A DNA stretch of 47,647 bases from the sequence record MF158039. The stretch is one strand, 5' to 3'. This stretch comes from Shigella phage Sf12. Each line of letters begins with the position of its first letter. The first letter of the stretch is position 1. Both the position numbers and the translations under genes were made by a program. Shown here piece by piece: positions 5,205-46,066 of this stretch. The notes under the pieces are model-generated. The model was not told the origin of the DNA and made no database searches. It saw only the letters and a program-made list of their open reading frames with translations.

Positions 5205-5250
5205 AATATACGCCATCTTTTGATTTCTGTTTTAGCAATTCGTGCTATTT
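5205..5250 (-). promoter_or_regulatory. Junction cassette copy: palindrome (5233..5247) and -10-like TATATT (complement of 5205..5210)
   Basis: ttagcaattcgtgctattt; stop codon of HNH gene lies in the palindrome. Confidence 0.55.
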
Positions 5251-5703
5251 ACCGTGTCTTTCTGTGAAGCAATGATTTGACTCATAGAAGCTGACTGCTA
5301 GCGCCTTTGCCTCATCAAAACTATCAAATGTTCTATGAATCCTGTGATTGTCCTTTTGCAATTGAACTGTGTATTTACCCTTAGCTTTATTGTAAGAAAC
5401 TCCTGTTTGTCCTGTTTTGTTATCTTTTCTCATCGCTGCGTTTTTGCAGTTTACCAGCCTATCTACACATCTTAAGTTTTCTATTCTGTTGTCGTGCTTT
5501 ATTCCATTCAGGTGATCTATCTCCATACCTTTAGTTATCTCACCATTGTGCATTTCCCATATAACTCGGTGGGCAAAAGTCATTTTGTGACCAACCTTTG
5601 TTCTTACGTAGCCCCTTCTGTCAATATACCCAGCCACTGAATTTGTTGTCTTCCTGATTAGATTGCCTTTGTCGTATATGTAGTGTTTATTCCAATCTTC
5701 CAC
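5245..5703 (-). CDS. HNH homing endonuclease (HNH plus AP2-like C-terminal domain)
   Basis: EIDHLNGIKHDNRIENLRCV motif; paralogous to four other copies in the window. Confidence 0.8.
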   Translation of the reverse strand: MEDWNKHYIYDKGNLIRKTTNSVAGYIDRRGYVRTKVGHKMTFAHRVIWEMHNGEITKGMEIDHLNGIKHDNRIENLRCVDRLVNCKNAAMRKDNKTGQTGVSYNKAKGKYTVQLQKDNHRIHRTFDSFDEAKALAVSFYESNHCFTERHGK

Positions 5704-8656: not shown

Positions 8657-9051
8657 GAAAGATAATCCTCAATTGCCAACTTAAACATTTCGAACCCATA
8701 GCAGATTGCCGCGTAACCTCCTGTTTCTGATACCTTTTCAAGAAACTCCTTTTGCTCATTTGAAACCTTGCTATCTGATTTTATTGCTCGCTTAAGCTCT
8801 ATTGCGGCAAAGCCATTAGGCCCAATCAGAAGGATATCTGACACGCCTTTGATAACCCCCTCTTGCTTATCCTTCATAGCAGTACCAATAGACTTCAACC
8901 CCTCATTCTTCACGTGCCATGCGAATATCTCTGGGTGATTATGGCGAACCCATGCGATTGAATTGGTTTGGTGAATGCACTCTTTACTTTTATCTTCTGA
9001 CTTCTTATCTAAGAATATTTTAACGCTCATTTTCTGCTCCGTGGTTTTCAT
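8638..9051 (-). CDS. VRR-NUC-like nuclease
   Basis: GVSDILLIGPNGFAAIELKR resembles the VRR-NUC G-x-P/S-D ... E-x-K core. Confidence 0.55.
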   Translation of the reverse strand: MKTTEQKMSVKIFLDKKSEDKSKECIHQTNSIAWVRHNHPEIFAWHVKNEGLKSIGTAMKDKQEGVIKGVSDILLIGPNGFAAIELKRAIKSDSKVSNEQKEFLEKVSETGGYAAICYGFEMFKLAIEDYLSNSTNC

Positions 9052-9550
9052 GGTACCCGATTTCTTTTTCTAAAGACTTCCTGGCTAACACTGCTGACTT
9101 CAAATCCACAAAGTAACCTATGTGCTTCTCCTTGCCGTTTATGTTTATGTAAGCTCTGAATTTCTGCTCTCTCTTGTTCCAGCTAACACCTGTAACCCCT
9201 GAAGTGTTGTCATTCCTTTTGCTTTGATTTTTTAAATTATCCTGCTTAGATACTAACCTTAGATTTTCAATCCTATTGTCATCTCTTATGTGGTTTATAT
9301 GGTCTATCTCCATTCCTTTAGGGATTTTGCCATTATAAATCTCCCATATTATCCTATGTGCAAGAAATGGTTTTTTATTTAAAATTATCTGAATGTATCC
9401 GATGTTTTTGGTTCCAGCCTCTTTGCCTGCATAGTTTCCATTCCATTGGGGCCTAACATCACCCCTCCATTTCCAAAACAACTTAAAATCATCACTTAAT
9501 GAAAAATAATCCAACCAATCAAAATTGCTTATTACTAATGACATCTTCAC
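9020..9550 (-). CDS. HNH homing endonuclease
   Basis: EIDHINHIRDDNRIENLRLV motif; overlaps both neighbours. Confidence 0.8.
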   Translation of the reverse strand: MKMSLVISNFDWLDYFSLSDDFKLFWKWRGDVRPQWNGNYAGKEAGTKNIGYIQIILNKKPFLAHRIIWEIYNGKIPKGMEIDHINHIRDDNRIENLRLVSKQDNLKNQSKRNDNTSGVTGVSWNKREQKFRAYININGKEKHIGYFVDLKSAVLARKSLEKEIGYHENHGAENER

Positions 9551-15608: not shown

Positions 15609-16570
15609 TTTTCGTATTTTGACATGTAGTATGAAGGAACCTGTAGCTCCATAGAGTCCTCAATCATGTTGTAGCCAGGCCAGCGGTCGTACTTCTTGCA
15701 CTGCTTGTATGTCGCCAGGGCTTCCATGTATTGACGCCGACCTAAGGCAATATGTGCATCTGATAGCGTGTAGCACATTGGTAAGTAGGGAGCCTTTTTT
15801 TCTTGAGCTAAAAGCCGAACTAAAACTTTACGTTTTTCGTTGAAAGCACGAACAAACAAATCTCTTTGCAAAGCCATTTTTAGCAGGTAACCATAATTGG
15901 CAGCTAGCCTACCAAACCCTTCAGGAGATGCGTCTGATGTCGTTTTAAAATCTGTAATTATGACCGTATCACCAACAACATCAACGTGGTCCAGCCTAAC
16001 CTTAACTCCGCACTCATTAATCTCTCCGAAGATTGATAGTTCCCTCTGAGCGGTTTCGCTGTTAACTATAGCGTTGTAAGCGGGAATGCCACACAACACC
16101 TCTCGCATCGCTTGTACGGTGTCAAAGTCCTTAGCTGATACAATCTCGCGGCCTTCGGCTTTAATCTCGCTAGATCGCTGGATATCCCACCATACGTTGA
16201 GTGATTCACCAGTCAGCGTCAGCATCTCCATCAATTCAGGGTAATCCTTGCCAGAAGTTCCCGTGATTCCCATCGCCTTAAGTCTTGCGGCTAATGCAGT
16301 CTTGCTTGTGATAAGGTCTTCAAACTCTTCCTGTGCTGGCTGTCGGTAATAAGTAGAATCGAATATGTCACTTTCCAAAATCATTGTATGTGCTGCGCTA
16401 CCAAATGAAAGCGCCCTGCTTTTCTCACTCTCCTGAAATCTAAATGCAGCAGGGCATGTTGAAAATATCTTAGCAAGACCGCTACCCGATACGTGATCAA
16501 CTTCTGAATGATAAGCATCATTTGTTAGCTCATCTCTCGTAAAGACCTTGAATTTCATTTTTCCCACCAT
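15593..16570 (-). CDS. PD-(D/E)XK recombination exonuclease (YqaJ/RecE-like)
   Basis: LDHVDVVGDTVIITDFKT D...D-x-K core; recombination-module context. Confidence 0.6.
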   Translation of the reverse strand: MVGKMKFKVFTRDELTNDAYHSEVDHVSGSGLAKIFSTCPAAFRFQESEKSRALSFGSAAHTMILESDIFDSTYYRQPAQEEFEDLITSKTALAARLKAMGITGTSGKDYPELMEMLTLTGESLNVWWDIQRSSEIKAEGREIVSAKDFDTVQAMREVLCGIPAYNAIVNSETAQRELSIFGEINECGVKVRLDHVDVVGDTVIITDFKTTSDASPEGFGRLAANYGYLLKMALQRDLFVRAFNEKRKVLVRLLAQEKKAPYLPMCYTLSDAHIALGRRQYMEALATYKQCKKYDRWPGYNMIEDSMELQVPSYYMSKYENSTNS

Positions 16571-17078
16571 GCTCTAATGTGAACTTGTTTTTCTTGTTGA
16601 ACTCTAAGCGAACCTTTATGGCCTCCTCCCTTGTATCGAACCTTCCTAGATTTACTGTCTTACCATTTAATCCGGCCCTTGCTATCCACTTGCTTCTATT
16701 TTTATCCCAACAAACACCACAAAAACCAGAAGTGTTATCATCCCTCATTTTTGAATTTCTATTGTTAACTGACTGAGTTACCACTCTAAGGTTTGATATC
16801 TTATTATCATCTCTAAATCCATTAACGTGGTCTATTTGATGCCCTTCTGGTATCTTTGATTTCAAAATCTCCCAAATAGCCCTATGAGCCATGTACTTCA
16901 CATTGTCAATTGTTATGTATATGTATCCTCTCTTCTCATTCTTAACGCCCGCCCTTTTATTTGCAAACCTTGAATTCCACATTTTACATGTCCTTGATGA
17001 TGGGAAATCTGATTCTGGTCTATTCTTCCATATCAGATAACCATCTTCATGGTATGTGAAGTATCTACTCCAATCCAT
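16530..17078 (-). CDS. HNH homing endonuclease
   Basis: QIDHVNGFRDDNKISNLRVV motif. Confidence 0.8.
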   Translation of the reverse strand: MDWSRYFTYHEDGYLIWKNRPESDFPSSRTCKMWNSRFANKRAGVKNEKRGYIYITIDNVKYMAHRAIWEILKSKIPEGHQIDHVNGFRDDNKISNLRVVTQSVNNRNSKMRDDNTSGFCGVCWDKNRSKWIARAGLNGKTVNLGRFDTREEAIKVRLEFNKKNKFTLEHGGKNEIQGLYER

Positions 17079-24774: not shown

Positions 24775-25522
24775 CCTCCGGTAAATCTTTATGCCTTACG
24801 ATTCGCACTGTCCGCTCACGATAGTAGTCGCCGTACAAATCAACCTTACTCATCTTACCATATAAATGGTGTAGGATTTTATTATCACCAATATAGATGG
24901 CAGCGTGGTTTGTCTTCTCGCTTTGAATCTGCATCATAATCATCGATCCAATTGGGATGTTATTACCGCGAACTAACTCGAACCCCTCTAACTCCCAATT
25001 GTCATCGTAGATATTGTCAGGGTATTCGTTCGTCCACCACTGATAATCAACGCGGTAGTCATTTAGTTTAACGCCGTGTAGCTTGTGAAATTCCATAACC
25101 AAATTCCAACAGTCGAAGCTGCCAAGACCCCATGGGCGACCAGCAAGCGGCATTTTTTCTGGCTGAATAATCCGTAAGTCCCCTTCAGGTATAGAAACAA
25201 TAACATAAGGCAGCTCGCACTCATTGCAGCTGCAAATATCAGCTGCGCTTGGCCTAGTAGTAGCACCATCACCAGTATGTGAATGTACAACATAAACAAC
25301 GTTTTCATTATCTGAAATCTCCATGAATTCTGATGGGTCAAGAATGAATGATTGCTCTGGTGTTTTGGATACGTTGGTAATCCTGTGATACTTCTGAGCC
25401 ATTCCCTTTTGAGTCACAACCCCGCAAGATTCTTGCGGGTAAACCTCGTTGGCATGTCGAAATATTTCGATTTTTACTTTAGGTGTTAGCATTTTATCTC
25501 CCATGATTCTCATGAAAACCAT
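24746..25522 (-). CDS. Tail tip protein (lambda gpK-like: JAMM/MPN plus NlpC/P60 domains)
   Basis: HSHT JAMM-like motif, Cys/His peptidase signature; position. Confidence 0.7.
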   Translation of the reverse strand: MVFMRIMGDKMLTPKVKIEIFRHANEVYPQESCGVVTQKGMAQKYHRITNVSKTPEQSFILDPSEFMEISDNENVVYVVHSHTGDGATTRPSAADICSCNECELPYVIVSIPEGDLRIIQPEKMPLAGRPWGLGSFDCWNLVMEFHKLHGVKLNDYRVDYQWWTNEYPDNIYDDNWELEGFELVRGNNIPIGSMIMMQIQSEKTNHAAIYIGDNKILHHLYGKMSKVDLYGDYYRERTVRIVRHKDLPEDAGYDPERD

Positions 25523-25971
25523 TTAACCTTCTGAATTCATCTACAGCAATTGATGCTGATTCAAATGATTCATGACTTCCTAAGCTGTATTTCTTCCCAT
25601 TGAAGACAACGCTTGCCCTGTAGTTATTTCTGTCCTTTCTAAATGTGACCCCACTTTCACCGGTTGTATTTCTCTTATTCATTTTCATGTTTTTTTTGAT
25701 TTTCAGAGTGACTAACAATCCTTAAATTTTCTACCCTATTGTCGGACCTCGAACCGTTTATGTGATCTATCTCCATACCTTCTGGTATATCACCGTTGTG
25801 CATTTCCCAAACAATCCTATGCACGTAATGATAACTTCCTTTAGCACCAACCCTCAAGTATCCTCCGCTACGCAAAGAACCCGCTAAAGATCCTATTACT
25901 ATATTTCTGTTTGTCTTCTTATTCCAGTAAAGCTTGCCATCTCTGTATTCAAAAATTTCATTCCAGTTCAT
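25494..25971 (-). pseudogene. HNH homing endonuclease split into two ORFs by a frameshift at a T8 homopolymer (25690..25697)
   Basis: ORF 25675..25971 carries the HNH motif EIDHINGSRSDNRVENLRIV; ORF 25494..25718 carries the C-terminal domain. Confidence 0.6.
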
Positions 25972-38659: not shown

Positions 38660-39769
38660 TTATTTTTTCAATTTAGCGAGGCGAGCGCGCGGGTTAAGAG
38701 TCTTAACTTCCGGTGCTGCATCAGATTTTTCCGCGCCAGCAACTGCTACACGGGCTTCAGCCATTTTATCAGAAGATTTGGCGATATCAAAGGCCGCATC
38801 GATGTACGCATCAGATTTCTCAGCAACTTCAATACCAGATACTTCTTTAACGTAAGCAACTTTAATTGCTTTAGCGTCCAGGCCATCACATTTAACGCCA
38901 GCTTCTGCAGCAACGGCGACCAGAGCAGCCAGTTCATCAGCATCAGCTTTAGCTTTCGCTACAGCAGCTTCGATTTCAGCAGGAATGCCATCAACTTTAG
39001 CTTTCAGTGCGTCACGCTCAGCTTCAAGGGTGTCAGCTTTGGCCTTGGCCTGTTCTGCATCAGCTTTAACGGCCTCGATATGCTTAGCAACTTCCGGGGC
39101 GATTTCGAACTCCTGCTCGCCATCCAGTTTAATCTTAATCATCAATTTATCCTCTTTATTTGATTGAACGGTATCAGTATACGGGTTTTCCTGTTCCGCG
39201 TCCAGATTCAGTTTAGCCACTTGCGCACGGCCTTTATATACCAGAGCAATGTGGTTCACAACGATGTTTGTTTGCAGAGCATCAAAGCGTACCCAATCAG
39301 CAGGAATCTCATCCTGACTTGAGTATTCTCCATCAAGCTTATACTCACCAGTTTCATTGCTGCCCCAGCCAGGAGACTCAATATCAACAGTGTTGTAGCC
39401 AACCGAAAGCTCACCAGCAACGCCAGACCTAGCCTTCTCGATTGCTTGCTTGTCGTAAACGGTAAGAGGAACGACAACTGTAGAATCCTGGCGCATCGCC
39501 GTACCGGATACTGCGCCAACTACGACATCCTTGGCGTTATCTGAGTTAACTACAACGTGACCTAAGGTAAGCGGCTTGCCCTGATAACTTTGCAGAGAGT
39601 CAGCTTTAAAGACCTCTGATGCTGGTCGGAACTCTCGGCGCTCCGAACCATCTGGCAGATGGTAAGTTTGCACGCCTACACGCGCAACCACTGGAGTGTC
39701 TACGAGAAACCCGTTTTCATCGAAATGGGCCTTTACTTTGGCGCTATCATAACGCATCTTACTCTTCAT
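38660..39769 (-). CDS. Head morphogenesis protein: N-terminal globular domain plus Ala/Lys/Glu-rich coiled-coil scaffold-like C-terminus
   Basis: C-terminal low-complexity AKADAEQAKAKADTLEAERDALKAK; position after portal. Confidence 0.5.
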   Translation of the reverse strand: MKSKMRYDSAKVKAHFDENGFLVDTPVVARVGVQTYHLPDGSERREFRPASEVFKADSLQSYQGKPLTLGHVVVNSDNAKDVVVGAVSGTAMRQDSTVVVPLTVYDKQAIEKARSGVAGELSVGYNTVDIESPGWGSNETGEYKLDGEYSSQDEIPADWVRFDALQTNIVVNHIALVYKGRAQVAKLNLDAEQENPYTDTVQSNKEDKLMIKIKLDGEQEFEIAPEVAKHIEAVKADAEQAKAKADTLEAERDALKAKVDGIPAEIEAAVAKAKADADELAALVAVAAEAGVKCDGLDAKAIKVAYVKEVSGIEVAEKSDAYIDAAFDIAKSSDKMAEARVAVAGAEKSDAAPEVKTLNPRARLAKLKK

Positions 39770-41085: not shown

Positions 41086-42654
41086 TTACTTGACTCCAGC
41101 TAGTCGCATTAAGCGGGCTCTTGGGTCGTCACTCAAGTTCAATTCACAGTTGATTGCCATCGTTGTTGTATCCACAATGTCATCATGAGGGTGTGAATCG
41201 TCCGCAGTGAACGCTGAGAACTCAGTTAACAGCGATGTAAGCCACGGTGCAGAGTCTGGCAGAACTACGTTACCAGCCTTAATCTGTGGCAATGCGCTCA
41301 TCACTCTGGTTAGTTTATCCGTATCTGGAACAAATGGTTCGATAGGTGTTCTCATGGTTCGACCTGCTGACTGGATAAGGCCGATACCAGATGCCTTTTT
41401 CTCGATAATAACCTTGCGTAAGATACCATCCGTTTTACTGGTTGCCCTATGCTTGCTCTCAAAATCCAGCAGAGTTTGCTCAAGCTCTGGAGCCTCCCAT
41501 TTCCCCCTCACCATATCCAGAAGGTAGAGCTTGTTATCCTTACGCCCCCAGAGCTGGAATACTGAGTAGTCGCTATAACTCTTCGTAGTCATGGCAGTAT
41601 CAGCCGTAATGAAGCGGTAGTCATACTTGACTGGCGGCCTGTTGTTCTCATCAAGCCTTACGAACCAATCTACGTTAATCAGGTTTCCACCCAGAGCTAC
41701 TGGCTCCTGCTGGTACTGGCTTAGGAATGTATACGGGTCTGAGTCCCACATCGCCATCAGGTCGTGCACAGATTCCTTTTGTGGAAAGTAGCTATAGTAT
41801 TTCACGCCGTCACGCTCAACTGATTCGGATGACAGGACATCCTTCTCGAACTGCTCACGAATCCAGTCAGGAAGCTCATTCGCATAGTCTTCAGTAACCA
41901 GCGCTGGTATCTTTACCACATCAAAGTCGATACCCATACCGCCAGAAGTCATGAACCACGTTGAATCCTGCGTATGTAGCCTTTGCTGGATTGATATAAT
42001 TGGCGTTGATTTACCCTTGACGCTACTTGCCCTACGCGAGCGGATGGTGTTTTTTAGCAACATGTGAACAGACTCGCGCTTCACCTTACTAAACATATCA
42101 TCAGCTTTATCGATATCGTCCAGCATCAGGCATCCGCTATAGGTGTCCGTGATATACCCACCACGACTGCCCGTAATCTGAGAGCCAATTGCCTTGGATA
42201 TGGATTCAAACTTAACCTTCCCAGAATCATCTAGCACCTGAATCTCATCATCCTTACAGGTTCCAAACTTGCACGGGAAAAGACTTTGAAACTCAACTGA
42301 CTTGATAAGGTCACGCACTCGCTTTGAGTTACGCTTCACAAGGCTATCAGAGAACGAGAGGTTAAGGTTCCTTACTTTCTTCAGCTTAAGCATCGAATAA
42401 ACCGGAAAGTGGATCGATGTAATCTCGGTTTTTCCGGCCCCCGGCGAAATATTTATAATCGTATCCTTCCTCTCGCCAGAAACTATCTCATCAATGATTC
42501 TGCATAGGTATTTATGGTGCCAGTTAGGAATGTATCGCTCTGATTGAGATAGCTGGAACCATACACGAAGGAATGCCTCGAAACTGTGAGTGGATAGTGC
42601 CTTAACTGCCAGCTTTTCAGCTGGCGTCATCTCTTCCCAAACTAATGTCTTCAT
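41086..42654 (-). CDS. Terminase large subunit
   Basis: Walker A-like SPGAGKT near N-terminus; acidic nuclease-like C-terminal half; overlaps TerS by 4 bp. Confidence 0.8.
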   Translation of the reverse strand: MKTLVWEEMTPAEKLAVKALSTHSFEAFLRVWFQLSQSERYIPNWHHKYLCRIIDEIVSGERKDTIINISPGAGKTEITSIHFPVYSMLKLKKVRNLNLSFSDSLVKRNSKRVRDLIKSVEFQSLFPCKFGTCKDDEIQVLDDSGKVKFESISKAIGSQITGSRGGYITDTYSGCLMLDDIDKADDMFSKVKRESVHMLLKNTIRSRRASSVKGKSTPIISIQQRLHTQDSTWFMTSGGMGIDFDVVKIPALVTEDYANELPDWIREQFEKDVLSSESVERDGVKYYSYFPQKESVHDLMAMWDSDPYTFLSQYQQEPVALGGNLINVDWFVRLDENNRPPVKYDYRFITADTAMTTKSYSDYSVFQLWGRKDNKLYLLDMVRGKWEAPELEQTLLDFESKHRATSKTDGILRKVIIEKKASGIGLIQSAGRTMRTPIEPFVPDTDKLTRVMSALPQIKAGNVVLPDSAPWLTSLLTEFSAFTADDSHPHDDIVDTTTMAINCELNLSDDPRARLMRLAGVK

Positions 42655-43166
42655 AGTTTATCCATTACCGAGGCCAGAGCTGCCTTCATTGCTTCCTCAT
42701 CGTTTACTACTGCATTAGAAGCGTTGTTGATGTTAACCTCTTGCGGCTTGTCGATGCCAAGGTCTTTGCCAATCAGTCCAGGGTTGACGATATTGTTAAC
42801 GCCAAGCTGATACTTCTGCTCAAAGATGACTGAATCCACGAACTCCATAACCTCATCGAACCCAGGTGATGAACGCCATTTGGCGATTGCATTGGGGCCT
42901 ACGCCGCAGAACAACTGGAATCCAGTTATCGTAAATACTCGCGGCTTGTGCACAAGGTTCTCAGTGACTACGCCCCGAAAGCTAGCGGTTTCAATTGCTT
43001 TAATTACTTGCTCTTCAGCCCAGCTGAAATACCTGACGGCCATATCGAAGACCTGTTCTGGCGTATATCTATGGTTAATCTTCAGGTTGGCAATGTCGCC
43101 ATACTTCTTATTGTAAAGTTCTTTGAAGTTTCCAATCTTCTGGTGAATCTTTTTCTCTTCTGACAT
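42651..43166 (-). CDS. Terminase small subunit (putative)
   Basis: 171 aa immediately upstream of and overlapping the large subunit. Confidence 0.5.
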   Translation of the reverse strand: MSEEKKIHQKIGNFKELYNKKYGDIANLKINHRYTPEQVFDMAVRYFSWAEEQVIKAIETASFRGVVTENLVHKPRVFTITGFQLFCGVGPNAIAKWRSSPGFDEVMEFVDSVIFEQKYQLGVNNIVNPGLIGKDLGIDKPQEVNINNASNAVVNDEEAMKAALASVMDKL

Positions 43167-43543: not shown

Positions 43544-43795
43544 TAGAATAGGTGCCGGTTACGGAATCCGGCGAGCTTTCACAATGCTCCGCGTTTGCGA
43601 CTTATACTTTGCTTTTGGCGATGCGCTATTGCCTCGTATCTTTACCCAGCCCGGCTATCGGCTTGCATCTCCGCGATGCGCGTTACGGTCATTGCCGCCT
43701 ACGTGGTTAATACTAACCACATTTAACATTTGAGTCAAGCCATGACGACGAAATAAATCCATGTCAGTATGCCCGCCAGGAACCAGATTGATAAC

Positions 43796-44035: not shown

Positions 44036-44303
44036 TTTAAATTGCCTTATCGACTAAAGTAATACTGCACAGTCCCGCCAAGGACGGCCTGCTGAGCGTA
44101 CGCTGATTCAGAACTGTCGTGGACTCTTCTGTGCATAACGCTGTTAAACTTTCCAGTGTAGTATGTGTGAATCCAGATCATCTCTTGCTCCACATGTGAA
44201 TTGCTAGCTTACCGTCTCCAGCCTCAGAATCGTTTGCTGCCCATAAGTTGCCAGTGAATACGTAAATCTTCATTTCTTCTCCTCGTTTCGTCTTGATGTG
44301 GTA

Positions 44304-44350
44304 ATCATATCAACTACCCATTCTGGCGTATTAGCAATTAGTGCTATTTG
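44304..44350 (-). promoter_or_regulatory. Junction cassette copy: palindrome (44332..44346), -10-like TATGAT (complement of 44304..44309); no long ORF downstream
   Basis: attagcaattagtgctatttg; leader catcaagacgaaacgaggagaagaaATG precedes only a 22-codon ORF. Confidence 0.5.
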
Positions 44351-44820
44351 CCGTGATTATCATGAAATACGTATTTTAAGTTCGCTTCCTGCCTTGCCTT
44401 AATTGCCTCATTCATGTCGGAATAAGTTCCCAGGTGAATATCCTTTCCGGAGACTTTAATCTTTGCGGCCCACTTACCTGAAGCTTTGTGCCAGCCTACT
44501 CCAATGAAACCACTTAAGCTAGATGGTCTTATTGATTGGTTCCTCTGATTTCCTGCGTTTGTAACAAGCCTTAGGTTTTCAATCCTGTTATCTTTCCTAT
44601 TATGGTTTATGTGATCAATCATCATACCTTCGGGCTTTTCCCTACCATGCATGAACCAAACTATATTGTGCACAAGTGCGGTTCCGTCTATGAAATGTCA
44701 CTGCAGATAACCTTTAGAATCAGGACTTCCAGTAACTCGTCCATTTGACAATCTGGTTATCGTTCCATCTTTATTATAGCTAAAGTGGCATTTTATATAC
44801 TCTTTATTTCTCACTACCAT
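44344..44820 (-). pseudogene. HNH homing endonuclease interrupted by an in-frame TGA (complement of 44698..44700)
   Basis: Hand translation MVVRNKEY...SKGYLQ*HFIDGTALVHNIVWFMHG...IDHINHNRKDNRIENLRLV aligns across the stop with intact paralogs. Confidence 0.6.
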
Positions 44821-44953
44821 CTACCTCCCTAGACCCCCACATATTCATCAGCTCAAAGTAAGCCATTGCCTCATCGCCGTCCTTTGCCTCATCCATCATC
44901 TTCTTACACCAGTCAGAAGGATTCATTTCCTTCTTCTTCATAATCAGGTCCAT
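44804..44953 (-). CDS. Hypothetical small acidic protein (ORF 44804..44998, start refined)
   Basis: Conserved leader tatcgaaacgagaggagacaaggcagtgATG. Confidence 0.4.
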   Translation of the reverse strand: MDLIMKKKEMNPSDWCKKMMDEAKDGDEAMAYFELMNMWGSREVDGSEK

Positions 44954-44986
44954 CACTGCCTTGTCTCCTCTCGTTTCGATAAAGTA

Positions 44987-45033
44987 ATAGTATCGCATCC
45001 TTGCGATTGATGTTTAGCAATTCGTGCTATTTA
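44987..45033 (-). promoter_or_regulatory. Junction cassette copy: palindrome (45015..45029), -10-like TACTAT
   Basis: tgtttagcaattcgtgctattta; palindrome encodes C-terminal NSTNC of the upstream gene. Confidence 0.5.
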
Positions 45034-46019: not shown

Positions 46020-46066
46020 ATCATAGCTGACTACCCGATTTATTGTTTAGCAATTCGTGCTATTTA
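46020..46066 (-). promoter_or_regulatory. Junction cassette copy: palindrome (46048..46062), -10-like TATGAT (complement of 46020..46025)
   Basis: ttgtttagcaattcgtgctattta; 22-bp gap. Confidence 0.55.

What the first reader, a model, noticed from the sequence alone, without database searches (positions are those of the whole stretch)
44344..44820. HNH homing endonuclease gene with an in-frame opal stop
Hand translation gives an N-terminal 40 codons, a TGA at the complement of 44698..44700, then the HNH domain. The two halves align without gaps to intact paralogs. It is either a recent nonsense pseudogene, a sequencing error, or stop-codon readthrough or recoding.
Basis: seen in the sequence. 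Interest (0 to 1): 0.5.

Follow-up and report, generated by a model that had tools for sequence, protein, structure and literature searches.

The report
Broken selfish nuclease gene in phage
A mobile "selfish" nuclease gene in Shigella phage Sf12 carries a single-base change that turns a cysteine codon into a stop codon, while every other known copy of the gene is intact, so it is most likely an ordinary, recently inactivated gene and not an example of unusual decoding.

Summary
On the minus strand, ATG 44820 is followed by 40 sense codons, TGA at 44700..44698, then 117 more codons to TAG 44346..44344. The joined protein is an HNH_3 + AP2 endonuclease with an I-HmuI-like fold. The window is the complete genome of Shigella phage Sf12, where GenBank annotates only the 102-aa C-terminal fragment. 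Three intact orthologous alleles from 11 independent assemblies (96–98.5% DNA identity) all read TGC (Cys) at this codon, so Sf12 carries a derived C→A change (+ strand G→T at 44698). The gene lies in a ~550-bp cassette that is absent from e4/1c, and it is far better conserved than its flanks, which is typical of a freestanding homing endonuclease gene. Nothing supports recoding: TGA ends 13 of 51 confirmed Sf12 genes, there is no suppressor tRNA or tRNA-Trp, there is no SECIS-like structure, and the stop is not conserved. The stop falls inside a conserved, well-folded N-terminal domain. Best reading: a recent nonsense mutation in a dispensable selfish gene, possibly slightly leaky because UGA-C is a weak terminator. 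A base-call error cannot be excluded without reads. A second HNH gene (25971..25497) is split at an A8 run. The finding is ordinary and of low interest.

The parts
44344..44820 (-). Full extent of the interrupted HNH-AP2 homing endonuclease gene, from ATG 44820 (or more likely GTG 44814) to TAG 44346..44344
   Evidence: Translation. Pfam HNH_3 1.9e-16 and AP2 1e-4. PHROG phrog_99 'HNH endonuclease' 4e-56 for the ortholog. 97%-identical intact ortholog P0001.
44698..44700 (-). In-frame opal codon TGA. The orthologs have TGC (Cys), so the derived change is C>A on the coding strand, which is G>T at + strand position 44698
   Evidence: DNA alignment A1. Codon table over 4 distinct alleles from 12 sequences.
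44701..44820 (-). N-terminal segment upstream of the stop (40 codons from ATG, 38 from GTG). It encodes part of a conserved helix and beta-sheet N-terminal domain
   Evidence: Y36 is invariant and Y13, G17, G29, G35 are >=90% conserved in 62 homologs. AlphaFold pLDDT is 92-94 for residues 11-40, and the stop lies in strand 37-41. The segment aligns to the I-HmuI N-terminal domain.
44344..44673 (-). Downstream ORF (109 aa from GTG 44673; GenBank annotates 102 aa from ATG 44652). It holds the HNH catalytic core and the AP2 DNA-binding domain
   Evidence: ORF list. Pfam on the 109-aa ORF. The exact 102-aa sequence equals ATE85793.1 / YP_009792038.1 'HNH homing endonuclease [Shigella phage Sf12]'.
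44286..44836 (-). Mobile cassette of about 550 bp (gene plus short flanks). It is absent from phage e4/1c, where the two flanks are 8 bp apart
   Evidence: blastn junctions are window 44837 = L013 801 and window 44285 = L013 810. Junction alignment A2. Gene identity is 96-98.5% against 44-89% for the flanks.
44804..44998 (-). Upstream small gene (64 aa, DUF8272-type in the orthologous contigs). Its 3' end overlaps the HNH start, so the HNH gene is probably translated from the same early transcript
   Evidence: ORF list. Gene order and Pfam in L001, L002 and L004.
44328..44350 (-). Copy of a 23-nt intergenic repeat (TAAATAGCACGAATTGCTAAACA type) that begins within the HNH stop codon. Other copies lie at 45011-45033 and 46044-46066
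   Evidence: the repeat finder family D1. An identical copy follows the HNH gene in L004.

Best explanation
The locus is a freestanding homing endonuclease gene with an I-HmuI-like N-terminal domain, an HNH nuclease core and a C-terminal AP2 DNA-binding domain. It sits in a ~550-bp cassette inserted between two small early genes of the T1-like (Rogunavirinae-type) Shigella phage Sf12. In the Sf12 lineage a single third-position transversion changed codon 41 from TGC (Cys) to TGA. Translation by the host therefore normally ends after 38-40 residues, in the middle of a beta-strand of the N-terminal domain, and the endonuclease is inactivated or strongly attenuated. This is the degeneration step of the usual invasion-fixation-decay cycle of selfish endonuclease genes. 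Shown here: the stop codon, the ancestral Cys codon, the insertion polymorphism, the domain architecture, and standard use of TGA as a stop in this genome. Inferred: that the change is real and not a base-call error, that the gene was an active homing endonuclease, and that the truncation abolishes activity. Because UGA followed by C is the weakest bacterial terminator, a few percent of ribosomes may insert Trp and make full-length protein. That would be passive leakage, not an evolved mechanism.
For: Ancestral state: three intact alleles (P0001, P0010, P0011) in 11 independent ENA/Logan assemblies all have TGC at this codon, and no other TGA-bearing or truncated allele exists in the 15-billion-protein collection, IMG/VR or JGI metagenomes. 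Recency: Sf12 differs from P0001's gene at 7 of 477 nt, and five changes within the 471-nt GTG-start frame are unique to Sf12: the nonsense change, three missense (K>R, T>I, G>V) and one synonymous. Selection: intact alleles show pN/pS of 0.13-0.17, while the Sf12 branch has 3 missense to 1 synonymous (omega about 0.8), consistent with relaxed constraint. Mobility: there is an empty site in e4/1c, and the gene is 96-98.5% identical across contigs whose flanks are 44-89% identical. Importance of the lost part: conserved residues lie upstream of the stop, the stop lies in strand 37-41 of a confidently modelled N-terminal domain, and the fold matches I-HmuI from residue 10. Against random error: every non-HNH Sd1 gene with a match in the window (about 55) is intact there, and the only two disruptions fall in HNH genes, which occupy about 5% of the genome. 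Against recoding: TGA terminates 13 of 51 confirmed genes, the only tRNA is Arg-CCT, tRNA-Trp is present in Sd1 but absent here, and no downstream structure or Rfam match was found.
Against: No reads or independent sequence of Sf12 are available; the IMG/VR copy has the same length and contains the same TGA-bearing sequence, and I assume, without having checked, that it derives from the GenBank record. A single-base error therefore cannot be excluded. The relaxed-selection signal is not significant (Fisher test, N:S 4:1 against 6:9, p = 0.30). The downstream ORF still contains both Pfam-defined domains with all catalytic-motif residues intact. UGA-C is leaky (PMC5289835), with about 2-4% UGA readthrough in E. 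coli reporters (PMC10570021). Residual activity is therefore possible, and 'pseudogene' may overstate the loss.
Confidence: 0.75

Rival explanations
1. Sequencing or assembly error: the real Sf12 genome has TGC (Cys) and the gene is intact.
For: The difference is a single base, and every other copy of the gene reads TGC. The only other disrupted gene is broken at a homopolymer (A8), which is a classic error-prone context. That hints that the record might contain uncorrected errors. The sequencing platform could not be verified because PMC5874400 is not held.
Against: Substitution errors in a consensus assembly are rare. The site is not in a homopolymer or repeat. Every non-HNH Sd1 gene with a match in the window (about 55) aligns full-length in one frame without stops. 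If two errors were placed at random, both landing in the ~5% of the genome occupied by HNH genes has a probability of about 0.0025. The Sf12 copy also carries three unique missense changes away from the family consensus, as expected for a real decaying copy.
Confidence: 0.17
2. Split-gene expression: ribosomes terminate at the TGA and reinitiate at GTG 44673 or ATG 44652, giving a shorter HNH+AP2 protein that is still an active nuclease.
For: The 109-aa ORF retains HNH_3 (model positions 4-46 of 46) and AP2. GTG 44673 lies only 24 nt after the stop. A PHROG of short HNH endonucleases (phrog_4578, 130 positions) matches residues 48-156.
Against: There is no recognisable Shine-Dalgarno sequence before GTG 44673 or ATG 44652 (sequence reading). 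The lost N-terminal 47 residues form a conserved, confidently folded domain with one invariant and four nearly invariant residues, equivalent to the N-terminal domain of I-HmuI. In I-HmuI that domain contacts DNA (own knowledge of PDB 1U3E). No ortholog has this arrangement.
Confidence: 0.05
3. Programmed recoding of the UGA: selected readthrough, selenocysteine insertion (UGA aligned with Cys in homologs), or a phage-specific genetic code.
For: UGA aligned with Cys in orthologs is the classic selenoprotein signature. UGA-C is the weakest terminator context (PMC5289835). None of Sf12's 13 genuine TGA stops is followed by C. Low expression could suit a toxic nuclease.
Against: The stop is not conserved in any ortholog. 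The +4 C and the downstream sequence are the same in the TGC alleles, so nothing has evolved around the stop. The downstream RNA folds no better than shuffles (z = 0.06), and there is no Rfam match. The Cys is not a conserved functional residue, since the family has V/I/T/F at that column. TGA is a regular terminator in this genome. There is no suppressor tRNA, and even the tRNA-Trp of the sister phage Sd1 is missing.
Confidence: 0.03

Closest known systems
I-HmuI (intron-encoded HNH homing endonuclease of Bacillus phage SPO1; PDB 1U3E)
   Same: It is the best structural match (Foldseek E 4e-5, probability 1.0) and the only nuclease found by sequence in the PDB (E 0.004, residues 10-96 against 12-103). 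Both have an N-terminal beta domain followed by an HNH (beta-beta-alpha-metal) core with the DH...N...N motif.
   Different: Identity is only about 20%. The C-terminal DNA-binding module here is an AP2 domain, not the helical/HTH domains of I-HmuI. This gene is freestanding between genes, not inside an intron. The Sf12 copy is interrupted by a stop codon.
Freestanding HNH_3 + AP2 endonucleases of tailed phages (PHROG phrog_99; e.g. Rtp gp40, Sd1 gp29 and gp43, and the many copies in T1-like, T5-like and Klebsiella siphophages)
   Same: They share the domain order, size (about 155-180 aa) and conserved motifs (GY...HR..W...DH.N..R.DNR.ENLR...N..N...SG.TGV.W...GFH.NHG). Their number and positions vary between related genomes. 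Sf12 has five, two of them broken.
   Different: The nearest phage-record homolog is below 60% identical. This ortholog group is otherwise known only from metagenome assemblies. The Sf12 copy has the nonsense codon.
Degenerate homing endonuclease genes in the invasion-fixation-decay cycle (Goddard and Burt 1999, cited from my own knowledge)
   Same: It is a selfish endonuclease gene that is fixed in its genome, has no empty target left to cut, and accumulates inactivating mutations. Here there are one nonsense and three missense changes unique to Sf12. A separate frameshift allele (P0011) and a second frameshifted HNH in the same genome fit the same pattern.
   Different: Decay is at a very early stage, with only 5 unique changes in 471 nt. 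The catalytic and DNA-binding domains are still intact in the downstream ORF.
Leaky UGA readthrough by tRNA-Trp (the Q-beta A1 readthrough protein, from my own knowledge; E. coli reporters, PMC10570021; the UGA-C context, PMC5289835)
   Same: It is a UGA codon in a weak +4 C context in an enterobacterial host, so a few percent readthrough with Trp insertion is expected on general grounds.
   Different: In Q-beta the stop is conserved and the extension is essential. Here the stop is unique to one genome and replaces an ancestral sense codon, and no stimulatory element is present.
Terminase-associated HNH proteins of cos/HK97-like phages (gp74 type; Kala et al. 2014, from my own knowledge)
   Same: It is an HNH protein encoded upstream of the terminase genes on the same strand.
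   Different: This gene lies about 1.2 kb from the small terminase gene, separated by several small genes and a tRNA. It has the HNH_3 + AP2 homing-type architecture. It is absent from close relatives, so it cannot be a required packaging factor.

Membership tests
HNH_3 endonuclease domain (Pfam PF13392) | Profile match above the curated gathering score | tested here: met
   The score is 59.8 bits against a cut-off of 24.8 for the joined protein, and 57.6 bits for the 109-aa downstream ORF.
HNH_3 endonuclease domain (Pfam PF13392) | Conserved catalytic/metal motif residues (DH ... N ... N) retained | tested here: met
   H68, N76, N80, N89 and N92 are invariant or >=90% conserved in 62 homologs. 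All are present in the Sf12 sequence IDHINHNRKDNRIENLRLVTNAGNQRN.
I-HmuI-like fold | Structural similarity of the N-terminal domain plus HNH core to PDB 1U3E | tested here: met
   The model has pLDDT 88.4. Foldseek ranks 1u3e_M first with E 4.1e-5, probability 1.0 and TM 0.48/0.43. The high rmsd of 14.9 A is probably due to different domain orientation in an extended protein (inferred, not tested).
AP2 DNA-binding domain (Pfam PF00847) | Profile match above the gathering score, or a fold match to solved AP2 domains | tested here: met
   The sequence match is below the cut-off (22.9 bits against 33.3). The fold matches WRI1 7WQ5 and AtERF1 1GCC at rmsd 1.3 A over 48-50 columns with probability 1.0, and phmmer against WRI1 gives E 3e-4.
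Freestanding homing endonuclease gene (functional class) | Presence/absence polymorphism at a fixed site between otherwise collinear related genomes | tested here: met
   In e4/1c the flanks are 8 bp apart where Sf12 has about 550 bp. The same slot is occupied in L001, L002, L004-L010 and L012.
Freestanding homing endonuclease gene (functional class) | The gene is more conserved than, and phylogenetically uncoupled from, its genomic backbone | tested here: met
   The HNH gene is 98.5, 96.0 and 98.3% identical, against flanks of 44-89%.
Freestanding homing endonuclease gene (functional class) | Site-specific cleavage of the endonuclease-free allele, and gene conversion in co-infection | not testable with these tools
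   This needs a purified protein cleavage assay on the e4/1c-type junction and mixed-infection crosses.
Intact, expressible gene | Uninterrupted reading frame over the full family length | tested here: not met
   TGA sits at codon 41 of 158, while the orthologs are uninterrupted at 156 aa.
Programmed stop-codon readthrough | The stop codon is conserved among orthologs | tested here: not met
   All 11 other assemblies (3 alleles) carry TGC. No other truncated allele is in the protein collection.
Programmed stop-codon readthrough | A stimulatory context or structure specific to the stop-bearing allele | tested here: not met
   The 3' context is identical in the sense-codon alleles. The fold z-score is 0.06, and there is no Rfam match. 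The weak +4 C is pre-existing.
Bacterial selenoprotein (Sec at UGA) | A SECIS hairpin immediately 3' of UGA, and a functionally conserved Cys/Sec position | tested here: not met
   There is no significant structure and no Rfam match. The column is V/I/T/F in the family, with Cys only in this ortholog group.
Alternative genetic code / suppressor-tRNA phage | TGA avoided as a terminator, and a suppressor tRNA encoded | tested here: not met
   13 of 51 confirmed genes end in TGA. The single tRNA is Arg-CCT. tRNA-Trp is absent, unlike in Sd1.
Terminase-associated HNH packaging factor (HK97 gp74 type) | Directly adjacent to the terminase genes and conserved in all related phages | tested here: not met
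   It is separated from the small terminase gene (42651..43166) by a tRNA and several ORFs, and it is absent from e4/1c and Sd1 at this position.

The most novel reading that the evidence does not exclude
The opal codon is real and is kept because it is useful. In its weak UGA-C context it would let through only a few percent of full-length, Trp-substituted endonuclease, turning a potentially toxic homing endonuclease into a low-dose, condition-dependent one. UGA readthrough in E. coli varies with temperature and cAMP (PMC10570021). This would be a natural 'leaky-stop attenuator' of a selfish nuclease.
Probability: 0.04. Interest if true: 0.45.

Novelty: new member of a known kind. Interest (0 to 1): 0.12.

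Why it matters
The main value is for annotation. The GenBank/RefSeq record of Sf12 lists a 102-aa "HNH homing endonuclease" that is really the tail of a 156–158-aa gene broken by one nonsense codon. It also lists a 98-aa one that is the head of a frameshifted gene. Both would be better marked as disrupted genes. The locus is also a clean, datable snapshot of the earliest step of homing-endonuclease decay. One nonsense change lies on an otherwise 98.5%-identical background, intact alleles still circulate in other phage backbones, and an empty site is known. That makes it a convenient natural pair (TGA against TGC) for testing homing in T1-like phages, or for measuring UGA-C leakiness during infection. 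It does not point to new biology.

Tried and rejected
- Suppressor or helper tRNA: ARAGORN and Rfam find only tRNA-Arg(CCT). The tRNA-Trp of sister phage Sd1 is cleanly absent.
- Selenocysteine: considered because UGA aligns with Cys in the orthologs. Rejected because there is no SECIS-like fold (z = 0.06), no Rfam hit, and the column is not conserved.
- Genome-wide TGA reassignment: rejected, since 13 of 51 confirmed genes stop at TGA.
- More alleles: exact-pattern scans of IMG/VR and JGI metagenomes returned only Sf12 itself or nothing. The phage GenBank collection has no homolog above 60% identity.
- Relaxed-selection test: the Sf12 branch against the other branches points the right way but is not significant (p = 0.30).
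- Sequencing platform of Sf12: the isolation paper (PMC5874400) is not held, and the Sf12 record itself does not appear among the phage-collection hits.
- Terminase-associated HNH role: rejected on position, architecture and absence from relatives.
- Close orthologs of the second broken HNH, to see the ancestral A-run length: none exist.
- A 'stop' flagged in the tail-chaperone gene: it turned out to lie upstream of that gene's own start codon.

Full report
**What is in the sequence**

On the minus strand an ATG at 44820 opens a frame of 40 sense codons. It then meets TGA at 44700..44698 (context CTG CAG TGA CAT) and stays open for another 117 codons to TAG at 44346..44344. With the stop bridged, the 158-residue product matches Pfam HNH_3 at residues 49–93 (59.8 bits, cut-off 24.8). 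It also matches AP2 more weakly at residues 103–146.

The "intact paralogs" claim also holds. tblastn finds four more HNH-AP2 genes in the window, at about 5245–5703, 9020–9550, 16530–17078 and 25497–25971. Two of them align across the stop position without gaps. There is one refinement. GGAGG lies 9 nt before GTG 44814, and this is the start called in the orthologs, so the real N-terminal piece is probably 38 codons.

**Where the window comes from**

An exact-sequence look-up shows that the 102-aa C-terminal piece (MHGREKPEG…) is ATE85793.1 / YP_009792038.1, "HNH homing endonuclease [Shigella phage Sf12]". It sits on a 47,647-bp contig, the same length as the window. The window is therefore the complete Sf12 genome. 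Sf12 is a T1-like siphophage about 88–90% identical in its structural genes to Sd1, Rogue1, Jk06 and phiKP26 (Drexlerviridae, Rogunavirinae). The public annotation hides the interruption by calling only the tail of the gene.

**Orthologs settle the ancestral state**

The large protein collection holds one close cluster with three uninterrupted alleles.
- P0001 (156 aa) lies on a 46-kb ENA contig and a 27-kb Logan contig.
- P0010 (156 aa) was traced to eight ENA/Logan assemblies.
- P0011 (160 aa) lies on one Logan contig and has its own 1-nt deletion near the 3′ end.

All three read Cys at the stop position (…GYLQCHFIDG…). At the DNA level all 11 sequences have TGC where Sf12 has TGA. The Sf12 state is therefore a derived C→A transversion at the third codon position, which is G→T at + strand 44698. 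No other truncated or TGA-bearing allele was found in the protein collection, in IMG/VR or in JGI metagenomes.

**It is a mobile cassette**

DNA matches of relatives stop at window 44837 and resume at 44285. In phage e4/1c these two points are 8 bp apart, and there the upstream small gene runs straight into the next one (…GAGGAGAAGAAATGAAG…). Sf12 thus carries an insertion of about 550 bp.

The HNH gene is 98.5%, 96.0% and 98.3% identical to the copies in L001, L004 and L012. The adjoining flanks are only 44–89% identical. Such a gene, much better conserved than its backbone and polymorphic for presence at a fixed site, is what a freestanding homing endonuclease gene looks like. Cleavage activity itself was not testable here.

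**What the stop removes**

An alignment of 62 family members shows one invariant residue (Y36) and four nearly invariant residues (Y13, G17, G29, G35) upstream of the stop. An AlphaFold model of the intact ortholog (mean pLDDT 88.4) places residues 1–47 in a well-ordered helix and β-sheet domain, with the stop in the middle of strand 37–41.

The model's best structural match is the HNH homing endonuclease I-HmuI (1U3E, E 4e-5, probability 1.0). Its C-terminal domain superposes on plant AP2/ERF domains at 1.3 Å (sequence-level support). Termination at the TGA therefore gives a 38–40-residue fragment of a domain. A product restarted at GTG 44673 or ATG 44652 would keep the HNH core and AP2 but lose the whole N-terminal domain. 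I see no Shine-Dalgarno sequence ahead of either candidate start.

**Recoding was tested and not supported**

- The genome's only tRNA is Arg-CCT.
- The tRNA-Trp(CCA) that sister phage Sd1 carries beside it is cleanly missing in Sf12.
- TGA is the genuine terminator of 13 of 51 confirmed genes, including the small terminase subunit, helicase and holin.
- UGA aligned with Cys is the classic selenoprotein pattern. However, the 83 nt around and after the UGA fold no better than shuffled sequence (z = 0.06), and nothing in Rfam matches.
- The column is V/I/T/F in the family, with Cys only in this ortholog group.
- The sequence 3′ of the codon is the same in the TGC alleles, so nothing has evolved around the stop.

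What remains is passive leakage. UGA followed by C is a documented weak terminator in bacteria (PMC5289835). E. coli reporters show about 2% UGA readthrough at 37 °C and about 4% at 25 °C through tRNA-Trp (PMC10570021). None of the 13 genuine TGA stops in Sf12 has +4 C. A few percent of full-length, Trp41 protein is therefore plausible, but it would be incidental.

**Real mutation or sequencing error?**

No reads are available, and the isolation paper could not be read, so this cannot be closed. Two indirect arguments favour a real mutation.

First, I aligned every annotated Sd1 protein to the window. All of the non-HNH genes that find a match are full-length, in a single frame and free of stops. 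The one flagged case lies upstream of that gene's own ATG. The only disruptions in the genome are this TGA and a frameshift in another HNH gene. HNH genes occupy about 5% of the genome, so two random errors would both land there with probability about 0.0025.

Second, the Sf12 copy carries three unique missense changes (K→R, T→I, G→V). The K→R and T→I changes replace residues that are commoner among the few homologs I compared by eye; the G→V site is a common but not invariant Gly. It carries only one unique synonymous change. Intact alleles evolve at pN/pS of 0.13–0.17. This fits relaxed constraint, although the counts are too small for significance (p = 0.30).

**Verdict**

The best-supported explanation is a recent nonsense mutation in a dispensable, selfish HNH-AP2 homing endonuclease gene (confidence about 0.75). 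Record error is the main rival (about 0.17). Functional reinitiation (about 0.05) and programmed recoding (about 0.03) are remote.

This is the expected degeneration stage of a homing endonuclease gene, and several observations fit that picture:
- a second broken HNH gene in the same genome;
- an independently frameshifted allele in a metagenome;
- intact copies still circulating in other phage backbones.

The finding is ordinary. Its practical consequence is that two Sf12 "HNH homing endonuclease" annotations should be recorded as disrupted genes.

Noticed in passing
window 25497..25971 (minus strand); homopolymer at 25690-25697: A second HNH-AP2 gene is split into two frames at an A8 run (CAAAAAAAAC in mRNA sense). 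With A7 it would encode a 158-aa protein that covers 100% of intact homologs (about 50-53% identity). GenBank annotates only the 98-aa head (P0012). It is inserted between the K-like and L-like tail genes, where Sd1 has 11 bp. It could be real decay, a homopolymer sequencing error, or a frame partly rescued by transcriptional slippage. No close ortholog exists to show the ancestral run length.
   Followed up: partly
L012 657-1139 (Logan SRR23593196 contig): The P0011 allele of the main HNH gene keeps Cys at the stop position. It has its own 1-nt deletion in TTAAAATAC, which frameshifts the last ~12 codons. This is either an independent disruption of the same gene or an assembly error.
   Followed up: partly
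window ~43544-43560, compared with L015 (Sd1) 39552-39635: Sister phage Sd1 encodes tRNA-Trp(CCA) directly next to tRNA-Arg(CCT). Sf12 has only tRNA-Arg, with about 79 bp cleanly absent.
   Followed up: yes
window ~43625-43738 (minus strand): A non-coding stretch lies downstream of a promoter-like site (TTGACT-17-TAGTAT, 43738..43710) and upstream of the tRNA. It is almost identical between Sf12 and Sd1 while the neighbouring sequence diverges. It may be the leader of the tRNA transcription unit or a small RNA. It has no Rfam match.
   Followed up: no
window 44328-44350, 45011-45033, 46044-46066: A 23-nt intergenic repeat (TAAATAGCACGAATTGCTAAACA in minus-strand sense) contains the short palindrome TAGCA…TGCTA. 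One copy starts within the HNH stop codon. In contig L004 the copy after the HNH gene is identical to the 45012-45032 copy. It may be a regulatory site, or the sequence at which the cassette recombines.
   Followed up: partly
whole window (stop codons of 51 genes confirmed against Sd1): Stop usage is TAA 35, TGA 13 and TAG 3. None of the 13 genuine TGA terminators is followed by C (T 5, G 5, A 3), so the weak UGA-C context occurs only at the internal stop.
   Followed up: yes
window 5245-5703, 9020-9550, 16530-17078, 25497-25971, 44344-44820: Sf12 carries five HNH-AP2 endonuclease genes (about 5% of the genome), all on the minus strand. The three intact ones are 34-44% identical to the interrupted copy. 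The closest relative, Sd1, has two annotated HNH endonuclease genes, both at different positions.
   Followed up: partly
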